NCBI RefSeq assembly: GCF_988242995.1
Contig: NZ_OZ547043.1
Strand: one strand, 5' to 3'
DNA length: 64,000 nt
Part shown: in pieces, positions 15,630 to 18,600 of the stretch
How the letters are laid out: every line of letters starts with the position of its first letter
Numbering within the stretch: position 1 is the stretch's first letter
Made by a program: the position numbers

Positions 15630-18600
15630 TTAAACAAAAAAACGAAGCAAGCATACGCCTGATGGCGGTCCAAAAAAAAGAGTCATCTTGCCTAAGAGTA
15701 TTGGCAGGATGGTGAGATTGAGCGACAATCGAGTTACACCGTCGCTTAAAGTGACGGCATAATAATAAGAATATGAAATTCCTCTTTGACGGGCCAATAG
15801 CGATATTGGCCATTTTTTTAACGCAACATCTGCGGCAAATTCCCTTCTCCATACAGGTGTAGTGCACCGACTGCGACCACATAGCGCCCCGGCGGCATGG
15901 CGCATAATTTGTCCCGCCAGGCGAGATTTCGCTGATGCATCAGCACATCGTACAGCGACTGACTGAACGTATTAGGCAGCGTTATTTCATTATTTTGCGG
16001 CGGCGCATTCAGCCACCAGCTCATCATTTGTTGCAGCAACCGTGCATTGGTGTGCCAGTGGGTCAGCGTATCGTCCAGCAGCGCCAGTCCGTTGTCAGGG
16101 AGCTGGAGCAACATGGCAATCTGGTTTTCTGCCCCTTCCAGTTCAATCACGGGTTTATGTTGTTGCTTCGCCGCCTGCAATAGCTGGTAATCGATACCGT
16201 ATTCTGCCCGCAGCCCCAGTTTTTGTGCCTGCGTCGCCTGAAGAACCATCGCGATTTGCCACAGCGGTTGGGTAGAAAAGAGTGAGGTAGAAATGCCCAT
16301 CTCCTGGCTAATGTGCTGCAGGTTTTGGAGTTGCTCCTCGCTAATGCGCTCTTCCAGCGCCTCGCAGGCAGGCAAATTAGCAAAAGGCGTATCGCTGGTG
16401 GAAACATCCGCCTCGACGATCAGCGCATCGGCGTTTTTGAGCTTTTTGAGCAAACGGGTGGGCAGGGGAGCCATATCGTGGCTGCCCATATGAATACTGC
16501 CAATCAGATGAAAATGGCGATTGCCGGGAAGAGAGATATCGATAGCAGGCCAGGTGTAATGATTACCGCGCAGCGCGGCCCAAAGCGTTTTTACCCGGTA
16601 CAACAGATCCATACGACCTCCCTTTGTGAAATATCATGCTAGCGCGCGGGGAGGGATGGCGCAAATGGAGTTATGAGGCTTGTTCAGTGGTAGCTTAAAT
16701 ATGATCGAAAAATTGTTTTTGCTTTGAAACGAAAGACTGCACCGGTGTTGGTGGCGTCAAAATCGCCGAGGCGTTCCCTGAAGGCCGGGGCAGCCCACAT
16801 GGATGTGGGCTGAGGGCGCGTTTTACAGGGATGTTACCTCGCGCCCGACCCGGTAGCCGCAAGGGATAAGCTGAGGGTACCGCGCAGCGGCGATTTTGTT
16901 CGCCAGAGCCCGGGGGTGCAGGGGGCGGCGGCGATTGGCCGCCCCCTGCGCGCTCCCTGCGCCAGTCACTTTATATGGCATGACTCATAAAAGGAGCGCA
17001 ACAAGAACTGGATCTCACAAACGCATTAAGTAAATACCAATCACTCTTTCGGTTTAAACCGCAGCAACCGGTTAGCGTTACTCACTACGGTAATCGACGA
17101 GAGCGCCATTGCCGCTCCGGCAACCACCGGGTTAAGCAGTGTTCCAGTGAACGGCCACAAAATACCGGCGGCGACCGGAATACCAATGCTGTTGTAGATA
17201 AACGCACCGAGCAGGTTCTGCTTCATATTGCGCAGCGTTGCGCGGGAAATCGCGAGCGCATCTGCAACACCCATCAGGCTATGGCGCATCAGGGTAATCG
17301 CCGCGGTTTCAATGGCAACATCACTGCCGCCACCCATCGCAATACCGACATCCGCCTGGGCCAGCGCTGGCGCGTCGTTAATGCCGTCGCCCACCATTGC
17401 CACCTGACGTCCTTCACTTTGCAGACGTTTGATCGCTTCGGCTTTACCGTCCGGTAGCACCCCGGCTATCACCTCATCAATCCCTGCTTCTTTGGCGATC
17501 GCATTGGCGGTGGTTGGGTTATCCCCGGTTAGCATCACCAGACGATATCCCGCTTTATGCAGGCGTTGCAGCGCCGCCACGCTATCACTACGCAACGGAT
17601 CGCGTACAGCCAGCAGGGCTACCGCTTTCCCGTCAACCGCCAGCAGCACAGGCGTTGCCCCTTGCGATGCCTGAGCAGTAATCTCCGCTTCGATAGCTTT
17701 GGTATCAACCTGTTGCTCATTTAACAACGCCTGATTACCCAGCAACAACGCATGACCTTCTGCTTCACCGCTCACACCCAGCCCGCGCAATGTGCGGAAA
17801 CCGTTGACCTGCGGTAGCTGCATATCACCTGCTTTATCGAGGATCGCCCGTGCCAGCGGGTGGCTGGAACCTTGCTCCAGCGCCGCCGCCAGACGCAATG
17901 CTTGCGCTTCATCAACATCAGCAAATGTTTTTACTGCGACAACCTGCGGCTTCCCTTCGGTCAGCGTCCCGGTTTTATCGAACACCACGGTGTCGAGCGT
18001 ACTGGCGCGTTGCAGCGCGTCGGCGTCCCGCACCAGCACACCAAACTCAGCCGCCCGCCCGACGCCCGAAATAATCGACATCGGCGTCGCCAGTCCCAGC
18101 GCACACGGACAGGCGATAATCAGCACCGTGGTGGCAATCACCAGGGTATAGACAATCTGCGGTGCCGGACCAAAGAAATACCAGATTGCCGCACTGATCA
18201 GCGCAATGACTACCACCACCGGCACAAACACAGCGGAGATTTTATCCGCCAGTTGACCGATTTCTGGCTTGCTGCTCTGGGCCTGGCGCACCATGCGAAT
18301 GATCCGTGACAGCGTAGTATGGCTGCCGACCGCACTGGCACGAAACAGCACACTGCCGTCCTGTACCACTGTCCCGGCATGGACGCTATCGCCTTCGCCT
18401 TTTTGCTGCGGGATAGGTTCGCCCGTCAGCATCGCTTCATCCAGCCACGCTTCGCCTTGAGTAATCTCACCATCTACCGGCACACGGTCGCCGGTCGTCA
18501 GGCGCAGTAACATACCTGGCTGAACATCTGCCAGCGGCACGTTTTTTTCACCTTCGTCGGTGACCAGGCGCGCCGTCGGTGGGGTTAAATCGAGTAATTT

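What the first reader, a model, noticed from the sequence alone, without database searches (positions are those of the whole stretch)
15736..15819. ChiX sRNA lies convergent to, and abuts, the ybaP 3' end
The ChiX sequence and its terminator U-tract end at ~15819, where the minus-strand ybaP stop codon lies (15818-15820). The two transcripts are convergent and essentially touching, so their 3' ends could overlap and interfere.
Basis: partly seen in the sequence, partly recalled or inferred. Interest (0 to 1): 0.3.

Follow-up and report, generated by a model that had tools for sequence, protein, structure and literature searches.

The report
ChiX sRNA terminator overlaps ybaP stop
The well-known E. 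coli small RNA ChiX ends in a run of U's whose last two bases double as part of the stop codon of the oppositely oriented gene ybaP; this tight junction is real, old and already annotated, and no regulatory consequence has been shown.

Summary
Rfam places ChiX (sroB) at 15736-15819 (+). The ybaP ORF is 15818-16612 (-), so its TAA stop is the complement of the last two T's of the ChiX terminator plus one A, a 2-nt overlap. The K-12 RefSeq record already annotates the same overlap. Published Term-seq puts the ChiX 3' end on the last T and labels it "primary, antisense ybaP".

I add three points.
- The junction is ancient. The ybaP stop lies in the ChiX T-run in 91 of 115 Enterobacterales species, while the neighbouring ushA/ybaK junction varies from 1 to 1859 nt.
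- The hairpin has no U-tract in the ybaP direction, so ybaP transcripts must run antisense into chiX. Transcript overlap is therefore obligatory, not optional.
- Published data show about 1.5% ChiX read-through into ybaP antisense, limited by Rho. They also show minus-strand, Hfq-associated fragments across anti-ChiX that their authors relabelled "ChiX".

Interference is plausible, with arcZ/arcB as a precedent, but it is untested. Tight convergent junctions are common nearby (3 of 11 pairs). Verdict: a real, known and largely ordinary feature, of low interest.

The parts
15701..15729 (+). chiX sigma-70 promoter-like site (TTGGCA, 17-nt spacer, GACAAT). The -10 hexamer ends 7 nt before the ChiX 5' end.
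   Evidence: Promoter scan. The GACAAT/CAATCG motif is conserved upstream of ChiX in other genera.
15736..15819 (+). ChiX (SroB/MicM/RybC) small RNA, 84 nt
   Evidence: Rfam RF00368, 79.7 bits. The fold is -24.1 kcal/mol, z = -3.6, with a 5' stem-loop and a terminator hairpin. It differs from K-12 chiX at two linker positions only.
15779..15790 (+). ChiX seed UUCCUCUUUGAC, single-stranded. Its complement (GUCAAAGAGGAA) is what follows the hairpin in the ybaP direction, so there is no U-tract there.
   Evidence: Sequence, unpaired in the fold, invariant in all 118 related loci by design of the search pattern.
15792..15819 (+). ChiX Rho-independent terminator: 8-bp stem, GCGA loop (15792-15811), an A, then U7 (15813-15819). 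The RNA 3' end is at 15819.
   Evidence: Terminator scan, + strand only. Term-seq 3' end at K-12 507287, the last T. The hairpin is kept by compensatory changes and the T-run is 6-8 nt in 116 of 118 species.
15818..15820 (-). ybaP stop codon TAA. Positions 15818-15819 are shared with the ChiX U-tail.
   Evidence: ORF list, sequence, K-12 annotation.
15818..16612 (-). ybaP (TraB/GumN family protein, 264 aa), convergent with chiX
15615..15817 (-). Untranslated stretch that any ybaP transcript enters after its stop. It is antisense to the whole of ChiX and its promoter and reaches the ybaK start codon. The only terminator-like site is weak and lies at 15661..15648. C exceeds G over 15757-15668.
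   Evidence: RIL-seq minus-strand fragments at K-12 507191-507513 correspond to window 15723-16045.
15820..16000 (+). Path of ChiX terminator read-through, antisense to the ybaP 3' coding region. It ends at a Rho-dependent region in K-12 (507468 = window 16000).
   Evidence: PMC7815308 supplementary file 2: -BCM 1492 upstream / 22 downstream; +BCM 2100 / 115; Rho score 3.7; p = 4e-10. C exceeds G over 15820-15900. Position transferred from K-12 by homology.
15135..15614 (-). ybaK, divergent from chiX and downstream of ybaP on the same strand
   Evidence: ybaK lies upstream of and divergent from chiX in 96 of 96 loci with enough flank.

Best explanation
This is the chromosomal chiX gene in its canonical ybaK-chiX-ybaP setting.

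ChiX is made from its own strong sigma-70 promoter. It ends by intrinsic termination at the last U of a U7 tail (window 15819). ybaP is transcribed towards it and has no spacer and no terminator of its own. Its UAA stop is templated by the last two T:A pairs of the ChiX T-run plus the next base.

In the ybaP direction the hairpin is followed by the complement of the ChiX seed, not by U's. It cannot act as a canonical bidirectional terminator. ybaP transcripts therefore necessarily continue antisense into chiX. (Inferred) They then end heterogeneously through one or more of:
- Rho acting on the untranslated, C-rich stretch,
- collision with the heavy chiX traffic or its promoter complex,
- 3' trimming back to the hairpin.

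Transcript overlap is thus built in: at least 2 nt, probably about 30 nt, and for some molecules the whole of ChiX.

ChiX vastly outnumbers ybaP transcripts, so ChiX is essentially unaffected. Any cost (duplex formation, collisions, or the roughly 1.5% read-through antisense RNA) falls on ybaP and is probably small.

The junction has stayed fixed since the common ancestor of Enterobacteriaceae, Yersiniaceae and Erwiniaceae. The main reason is that it offers almost no neutral target. One side is the U-tail ChiX needs for termination and Hfq binding; the other is the ybaP reading frame. It is a tolerated piece of genome compaction, not a dedicated regulatory device.
For: Shown:
- ChiX identity and coordinates.
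- The 2-nt overlap, also present in the K-12 annotation.
- ChiX 3' end at the last T, with 445,279 to 955,394 Term-seq counts in three conditions.
- A terminator is detected at the hairpin on the + strand only; the next minus-strand candidates lie 157 nt or more downstream.
- Read-through past ChiX is about 1.5% and Rho-limited.
- The ybaP stop lies in the ChiX T-run in 91 of 115 species. Four to five more overlap more deeply (17 nt; one apparent 87 nt, not checked), and 19 are separated by 3-230 nt, in several cases by ERIC-like or repeat insertions. So the junction is stable but not obligatory.
- The YbaP tail after the conserved LPxML motif varies from 1 to 6 residues while the stop stays in the T-run.
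- The base after the T-run is A in 96 of 118 loci. Where the stop lies elsewhere, the sequences printed show G, C or A at that position.
- Control: the adjacent ushA/ybaK junction takes 62 different gap sizes (1-1859 nt) in 75 of the same genomes.
- Tight convergent junctions are common locally. 3 of 11 convergent pairs in 50 kb of K-12 have a gap of 0 or less: hemH/aes -4, chiX/ybaP -2, cueR/ybbJ 0.

Inferred from established knowledge: intrinsic termination needs a U-tract, a translatable mRNA must extend past its stop codon, and Hfq-binding sRNAs need the poly-U tail.
Against: - The stability of the junction relative to ushA/ybaK could also reflect selection for the overlap itself.
- arcZ/arcB has the same architecture (about 10-nt overlap) and is reported to show reciprocal repression.
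- RIL-seq tables list minus-strand fragments across anti-ChiX and into the ybaP CDS on Hfq, with hundreds to thousands of chimeras. The antisense RNA may therefore be less negligible than I assume.
- The ybaP 3' end and ybaP expression level were not available to me.
It requires an intact seed plus the hairpin start, so it is neither exhaustive nor unbiased.
Confidence: 0.72

Rival explanations
1. ArcZ/arcB-type reciprocal cis-antisense control. The ybaP mRNA 3' UTR, fully complementary to ChiX, pairs with ChiX on or off Hfq. Either ChiX destabilises ybaP mRNA, or ybaP transcription titrates or destabilises ChiX as a cis-encoded decoy, in addition to the known trans decoys chbBC-IGR and ChiZ.
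For: - The same architecture in arcZ/arcB is reported to give mutual repression (review PMC11331407; 9-nt overlap in the K-12 annotation).
- Minus-strand fragments at K-12 507191-507513 appear in Hfq RIL-seq chimeras with ArcZ, SdsR, Spot 42 and GlnZ.
- The single-stranded ChiX seed would meet a perfect complement in any ybaP transcript that passes the hairpin.
- The junction is deeply conserved.
Against: - No study links ChiX and ybaP.
- ChiX exceeds the minus-strand fragments by roughly 500-fold in the same tables (about 5.3 million against about 10 thousand chimeras), so titration of ChiX is unlikely.
- The odds ratios of those chimeras are low (1.4-2.6), and their authors treat them as ChiX. 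A strand artefact of a hyper-abundant RNA is not excluded.
- 19 of 115 species separate the two genes by 3-230 nt, though this does not remove the antisense relation.
- Duplex predictions were not discriminating.
Confidence: 0.15
2. The ChiX terminator hairpin doubles as the ybaP terminator through the collision-dependent or hairpin-pause type of bidirectional termination described for convergent E. coli genes. ybaP 3' ends would then sit just past the hairpin (about 15785-15791), overlapping ChiX by about 30 nt. The zero-spacer layout would be selected to shield the chiX and ybaK promoters from ybaP read-through.
For: - SEnd-seq and single-molecule work reports hundreds of convergent pairs with non-canonical, Rho-independent bidirectional terminators, in which a hairpin positions head-on RNAP collisions (bioRxiv 10.1101/2022.10.23.513370).
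- chiX is very heavily transcribed, so collisions are likely.
- The reverse hairpin forms in the minus-strand fold.
- ybaP has no independent terminator in any of the species with a spacer.
Against: - No ybaP 3' end is listed at the hairpin in Term-seq.
- RIL-seq minus-strand ranges run past the hairpin to beyond the ChiX 5' end.
- The hairpin lacks a U-tract in the ybaP direction.
- I could not read the SEnd-seq gene list.
Confidence: 0.2
3. ybaP and ybaK are co-transcribed. A ybaP-ybaK mRNA would cross chiX and its promoter in antisense, making anti-ChiX a regular part of an operon transcript.
For: - Both genes lie on the same strand with only 203 nt between them.
- The consensus scan finds no promoter for ybaK.
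- Synteny holds in 96 of 96 loci.
- The only minus-strand terminator-like site between them is weak.
Against: - A conserved extended -10-like motif (TGGTACTAT) lies upstream of ybaK in Citrobacter, Klebsiella, Salmonella and Enterobacter, which suggests a promoter for ybaK itself.
- The C-rich untranslated stretch and the chiX promoter complex would favour Rho termination or a roadblock.
- ChiX accumulates to very high levels, which argues against abundant full antisense.
Confidence: 0.1

Closest known systems
ChiX / SroB / MicM / RybC (Rfam RF00368), E. coli K-12 b4585
   Same: It is this gene. It gives a full-length covariance-model match, shares the ybaK-chiX-ybaP synteny, has the same promoter, seed, terminator and 2-nt overlap with ybaP as the K-12 annotation, and has the same 3' end as mapped by Term-seq.
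   Different: There are two substitutions in the A-rich linker relative to K-12 (15769 A>G, 15772 A>T). The G was absent from the best match among 5,426 complete E. coli genomes.
arcZ / arcB convergent overlap
   Same: An Hfq-dependent sRNA whose Rho-independent terminator overlaps the 3' end of a convergent protein-coding gene. The overlap is about 10 nt in the review and 9 nt in the K-12 annotation, and it is conserved in most Enterobacterales with occasional exceptions.
   Different: For arcZ/arcB a reciprocal effect is reported: arcB mRNA lowers ArcZ, and ArcZ represses arcB. Nothing comparable is reported for ChiX/ybaP. The overlap here is only 2 nt of CDS, and YbaP has no known functional tie to chitosugar uptake.
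GadY / gadX 3' UTR (cis-encoded sRNA overlapping a convergent mRNA 3' end). Cited from my own knowledge, not checked here.
   Same: A small RNA is encoded opposite the 3' end of a convergent mRNA, so the two are perfectly complementary.
   Different: GadY acts through that overlap. The known targets of ChiX (chiP, the chb decoy, ChiZ) are in trans.
Bidirectional terminators between convergent E. coli genes (Ju et al. 2019; Wang et al. 2022)
   Same: A convergent pair with a single hairpin-encoding element at the junction and overlapping 3' ends.
   Different: The ChiX side is a textbook intrinsic terminator. The ybaP side has no mapped 3' end. One partner is a very highly expressed sRNA rather than an mRNA.

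Membership tests
ChiX/SroB sRNA (Rfam RF00368) | Covariance-model score above the family's gathering threshold, over the full length | tested here: met
   79.7 bits against 44, model positions 1-83 of 83, E = 1e-10.
ChiX/SroB sRNA (Rfam RF00368) | Location in the ybaK-ybaP intergenic region, divergent from ybaK and convergent with ybaP | tested here: met
   [quoted passage not shown] 96 of 96 loci have ybaK and 115 of 118 have ybaP.
ChiX/SroB sRNA (Rfam RF00368) | Single-stranded seed UUCCUCUUUGAC that pairs with chiP and the chb decoy | tested here: met
   The sequence is present at 15779-15790 and unpaired in the MFE and centroid folds. Pairing to chiP itself was not tested because chiP lies outside the window.
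ChiX/SroB sRNA (Rfam RF00368) | Rho-independent terminator with a U-tail of 7 or more, as in Hfq-binding sRNAs | tested here: met
   8-bp stem plus U7. The 3' end was mapped at the last U in K-12.
ChiX/SroB sRNA (Rfam RF00368) | Hfq binding and repression of chiP | not testable with these tools
   Known for the K-12 and Salmonella orthologues. This allele differs at two linker positions.
Canonical bidirectional intrinsic terminator | Hairpin flanked by an A-tract upstream and a T-tract downstream, so that both strands read hairpin plus U-tract | tested here: not met
   The upstream flank is TTTGACG. In the ybaP direction the hairpin is followed by CGUCAAAG, with 1 U in 8. The scan calls a terminator on the + strand only.
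Collision-type bidirectional terminator (Ju 2019 / Wang 2022) | 3' ends of both convergent transcripts mapped flanking one hairpin, independent of Rho | tested here: inconclusive
   The ChiX end is mapped. No ybaP end is listed. The SEnd-seq paper was not readable.
Cis-antisense sRNA/mRNA regulatory pair (arcZ/arcB, gadY/gadX type) | Overlapping convergent transcripts exist in vivo | tested here: inconclusive
   The overlap is logically required (at least 2 nt). Minus-strand fragments over anti-ChiX appear in RIL-seq tables, but they may be strand artefacts.
Cis-antisense sRNA/mRNA regulatory pair (arcZ/arcB, gadY/gadX type) | The level of one partner changes when the other is removed or induced | not testable with these tools
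   No report was found.

The most novel reading that the evidence does not exclude
ChiX/ybaP would be a second arcZ/arcB-type pair. ybaP transcripts carry a complete natural antisense of ChiX as their 3' UTR. This RNA sits on Hfq: the minus-strand 'ybaP.EST3UTR' fragments that a published RIL-seq study relabelled as ChiX would be real. Through it, ChiX sets ybaP expression, or bursts of ybaP transcription locally deplete ChiX. That would explain why the zero-spacer junction has been held in most Enterobacterales.
Probability: 0.12. Interest if true: 0.5.

Novelty: already known. Interest (0 to 1): 0.18.

Why it matters
There are three practical points.

1. Any manipulation of the ybaP 3' end can alter the ChiX terminator or U-tail, or drive antisense transcription across chiX. 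This includes deletions, tags and cassettes reading out of ybaP. ybaP knock-out phenotypes, for example blue-light hypersensitivity in a Keio screen, should therefore be checked for ChiX and chiP effects.

2. Automated RefSeq annotation of E. coli does not list chiX at all. Interactome pipelines label the locus 'ybaP.EST3UTR'. Strand and feature assignment here is error-prone.

3. If the cis-antisense reading were true, one of the most abundant Hfq-bound sRNAs would have a built-in, locus-encoded partner, which would be a modest addition to ChiX biology.

Otherwise this is an ordinary example of compact convergent gene packing.

Tried and rejected
**Searches for a mapped ybaP 3' end**
- Adams et al. 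Term-seq lists only the ChiX end (507287) and the ushA end (506602) in 5066xx-5072xx.
- Supplements of PMC9023263, PMC5145812 and PMC5207318 are not held as text. Those of PMC6131387 and PMC12207403 do not mention chiX, ybaP or ybaK.
- The SEnd-seq paper PMC6814526 is not held.

**Test of the RIL-seq minus-strand partners**
I asked whether ArcZ and SdsR pair better with anti-ChiX than with ChiX, using RNAduplex against shuffled sequences. No comparison was significant in a useful direction (z = -0.3 to -2.1), so I dropped this test.

**Readings considered and rejected**
- The hairpin as a canonical bidirectional terminator: there is no U-tract on the ybaP side.
- The minus-strand T8 at 15679-15672 as a ybaP terminator: in other genera the same place reads as an extended -10-like ybaK promoter motif, not a terminator.
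- The small minus-strand ORFs 15598..15882 and 15630..15905 as genes: they merely run across ChiX and the promoter region, and nothing supports them.
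Full report
**What is there**

The window is E. 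coli chromosome. A 1.6-kb piece around the finding matches 5,422 of 5,426 complete E. coli genomes at 95-99.7% identity. Rfam's sroB model (ChiX, also called MicM or RybC) matches 15736-15819 on the + strand over its full length, at 79.7 bits against a gathering score of 44. It is the only sRNA hit in this neighbourhood.

Reading the sequence gives the following layout:
- a promoter-like TTGGCA-17-GACAAT at 15701-15729, ending 7 nt before the RNA start;
- a 5' stem-loop;
- an A-rich linker;
- the seed UUCCUCUUUGAC at 15779-15790;
- an 8-bp GC-rich hairpin at 15792-15811;
- an A, then U7 at 15813-15819.

The RNA folds as expected, at -24.1 kcal/mol with z = -3.6.

On the other strand, the ORF 15818..16612 (264 aa) is ybaP. 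It is a TraB/PrgY/GumN-family protein whose Pfam match runs to its last residue. Its TAA stop is the complement of 15818-15820, so ChiX and the ybaP CDS share 15818-15819.

**Already on record**

The K-12 RefSeq record annotates chiX 507204..507287 (+) and ybaP 507286..508080 (-), the same 2-nt overlap. Term-seq from Adams et al. 2021 (PMC7815308, supplementary file 1) puts the ChiX 3' end at 507287, the last T. This corresponds to window 15819. It holds in all three growth conditions, with very high counts (445,279; 552,306; 955,394), and the end is classed 'primary, antisense' with respect to ybaP.

The same paper's bicyclomycin data list a Rho-dependent region at 507468 (+), antisense to ybaP. 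Coverage upstream/downstream is 1492/22 without the drug and 2100/115 with it, p = 4e-10. About 1.5% of chiX transcription therefore runs on into ybaP antisense for about 180 nt and is stopped by Rho. The first 80 nt of that path are C-rich.

No minus-strand 3' end is listed between ushA and ybaP. The ybaP end remains unmapped in the data I could read.

**Why the transcripts must overlap**

In the ybaP direction the hairpin is followed by CGUCAAAGAGG, the complement of the ChiX seed, rather than by U's. The terminator scan calls this site on the + strand only. The nearest minus-strand candidates are a weak one at 15661..15648 and one inside ybaK.

A translatable ybaP mRNA must contain, and extend past, its stop codon. 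It therefore necessarily carries antisense ChiX sequence. How far ybaP transcripts go is unknown. The untranslated stretch has a C>G zone at 15757-15668 that would suit Rho. It also has to cross a very busy chiX promoter.

**A hint that they go far**

The RIL-seq tables of McQuail et al. 2023 (PMC10954441) contain rows on the minus strand at 507215-507289, 507238-507290, 507204-507428, 507216-507349 and 507191-507513. These are labelled ybaP.EST3UTR or ybaP and form chimeras with ArcZ, SdsR, Spot 42, GlnZ and FlgO. The authors state that 'ybaP.EST3UTR was considered to be ChiX'. On the stated strand, however, these fragments are antisense to ChiX, and some ranges reach into the ybaP CDS and past the ChiX 5' end.

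Two readings are possible:
- They are real ybaP 3' regions, perhaps held on Hfq through ChiX.
- They are a strand artefact of an RNA that supplies about 5.3 million chimeras in the same library. The minus-strand counts are about 0.2% of that, and the odds ratios are only 1.4-2.6.

Duplex predictions did not discriminate between the two. I leave this as unexplained.

**Comparative evidence**

118 of them are real chiX loci from Enterobacterales.

| Junction state | Species (of 115 with a convergent ybaP) |
|---|---|
| Exactly the 2-nt overlap (TAA from the last two T's plus A) | 87 |
| 1-nt overlap (TGA; some Pantoea) | 4 |
| ybaP reads 17 nt into the hairpin (Phytobacter/Kosakonia type, tail ...QKNGQ*) | 4 |
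| ybaP appears to read 87 nt through all of chiX (Phytobacter massiliensis; not checked further) | 1 |
| Separated by 3-230 nt | 19 |

The spacers, where present, look like ERIC-type elements (Buttiauxella, Rahnella inusitata) or short tandem repeats (Erwinia/Pantoea). None provides an obvious ybaP terminator.

Further observations on the same loci:
- YbaP identity to E. coli falls to 54-60% in Serratia, Yersinia, Rahnella and Pantoea.
- The tail after the conserved LPxML motif varies from 1 to 6 residues, yet the ORF still ends in the T-run.
- The hairpin is maintained by compensatory changes.
- The T-run is 6-8 nt in 116 of 118 loci.
- The following base is A in 96 of 118 loci. In loci where the stop lies elsewhere, one search shows G, C or A at that position.

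As a control, the next convergent junction, ushA/ybaK, takes 62 different gap sizes from 1 to 1859 nt in 75 of the same genomes. The chiX/ybaP junction is therefore unusually stable, yet it is demonstrably dispensable.

**Interpretation**

The simplest account is compaction with a vanishing neutral target. One side of the junction is a U-tail needed for termination and Hfq binding. The other is a reading frame. Only an insertion exactly at the boundary that also brings a new stop survives, and mobile repeats have done this a few times.

Tight convergent junctions are also ordinary here. In 50 kb of K-12 around the locus, 3 of 11 convergent pairs have no spacer: hemH/aes -4, chiX/ybaP -2, cueR/ybbJ 0. 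The ushA 3' end also abuts the ybaK stop.

Given the expression asymmetry, ChiX should be indifferent to ybaP. Any effect would fall on ybaP.

I give about 0.7 to this 'known gene, obligatory but inconsequential overlap' reading.

**Rivals**

- arcZ/arcB is the closest precedent. ArcZ's terminator overlaps arcB by about 10 nt, and arcB mRNA and ArcZ are reported to repress each other. By analogy ChiX and ybaP could be a cis-antisense pair. I put this at about 0.15 because nothing links them functionally and the stoichiometry is extreme.
- The collision or hairpin-pause model of bidirectional termination could make the ChiX hairpin the de facto ybaP terminator. I put this at about 0.2. The RIL-seq ranges argue against a sharp stop.
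- Co-transcription of ybaP and ybaK across chiX is possible but unlikely, about 0.1. A conserved extended -10-like motif upstream of ybaK in other genera suggests that ybaK has its own promoter.

**Verdict**

The feature is already annotated and experimentally mapped, so I rate novelty as 'already known' and interest as low. The conserved stop-in-terminator junction and the mislabelled minus-strand RIL-seq fragments are the only points worth a short follow-up.

Noticed in passing
K-12 507191-507513, minus strand (window 15723-16045): The RIL-seq tables of PMC10954441 list minus-strand fragments here, labelled ybaP.EST3UTR or ybaP, in chimeras with ArcZ, SdsR, Spot 42, GlnZ and FlgO. The authors relabel them as ChiX, although the strand is antisense to ChiX. 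They are either real anti-ChiX / ybaP 3' UTR RNA on Hfq or a strand artefact.
   Followed up: partly
window 15769 and 15772: The ChiX A-rich linker reads AAGAAUAUG, against AAAAAAAUG in K-12. The T at 15772 is present in strain 118UI, in E. albertii and in E. whittamii, and at most 189 of 5,422 E. coli genomes match the 171-nt query at 99% or better. The G at 15769 was absent from the best match among 5,426 complete E. coli genomes (best 99.4% over 171 nt).
   Followed up: partly
window ~16685-17005: ybaQ and the REP cluster that lie between ybaP and copA in K-12 are absent. About 300 bp of unrelated sequence sits there instead. Its position fits the published TRIP1e repeat (124 bp upstream of the ybaP start, 38 bp downstream of the copA stop; PMC10888264).
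   Followed up: partly
window 15099-15134: ushA (+) and ybaK (-) converge on a 36-nt spacer holding one hairpin (GTGCCGGAT...ATCCGGCAC). The K-12 Term-seq ushA 3' end (506602) lies 1 nt before the ybaK stop. This is another abutting pair 700 bp away.
   Followed up: partly
L040, L046, L064, L122; L067, L075, L100: Where chiX and ybaP are separated, the spacer looks like an ERIC-type element (Buttiauxella, Rahnella inusitata) or a run of GAGCAGTT tandem repeats (Erwinia/Pantoea). The insertion lies exactly between the T-run and the ybaP stop.
   Followed up: no
L026 (Phytobacter massiliensis); L041, L048, L066, L094: The ybaP ORF lacks the stop in the T-run. In L026 it appears to read 87 nt through the whole of chiX in antisense (not checked further). 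In the other four loci it reads 17 nt into the terminator hairpin (tail ...QKNGQ*).
   Followed up: no
window ~15680-15690 (minus strand); loci L003, L028, L053, L058, L103: An extended -10-like motif TGGTACTAT lies upstream of ybaK, back-to-back with the chiX -35. It is conserved in Citrobacter, Enterobacter, Kluyvera, Klebsiella and Salmonella but degenerate in E. coli (TGACTCT).
   Followed up: no
RefSeq E. coli records under hits H1-H22: PGAP-annotated E. coli genomes list only ybaP and ybaK under this region. chiX is annotated in the K-12 record but not in the automated annotations.
   Followed up: no
window 1995-2059 (+); 9982-10059 (+); 50830-50907 (-): Other Rfam hits in the window: the dnaX frameshift element and two naRNA4 (CssrE, REP-derived) copies.
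   Followed up: no
L065, L091 (Proteus): chiX is present without an adjacent ybaP. This agrees with a report that P. mirabilis MicM lies between copA and PMI2174 (PMC4355480).
   Followed up: no
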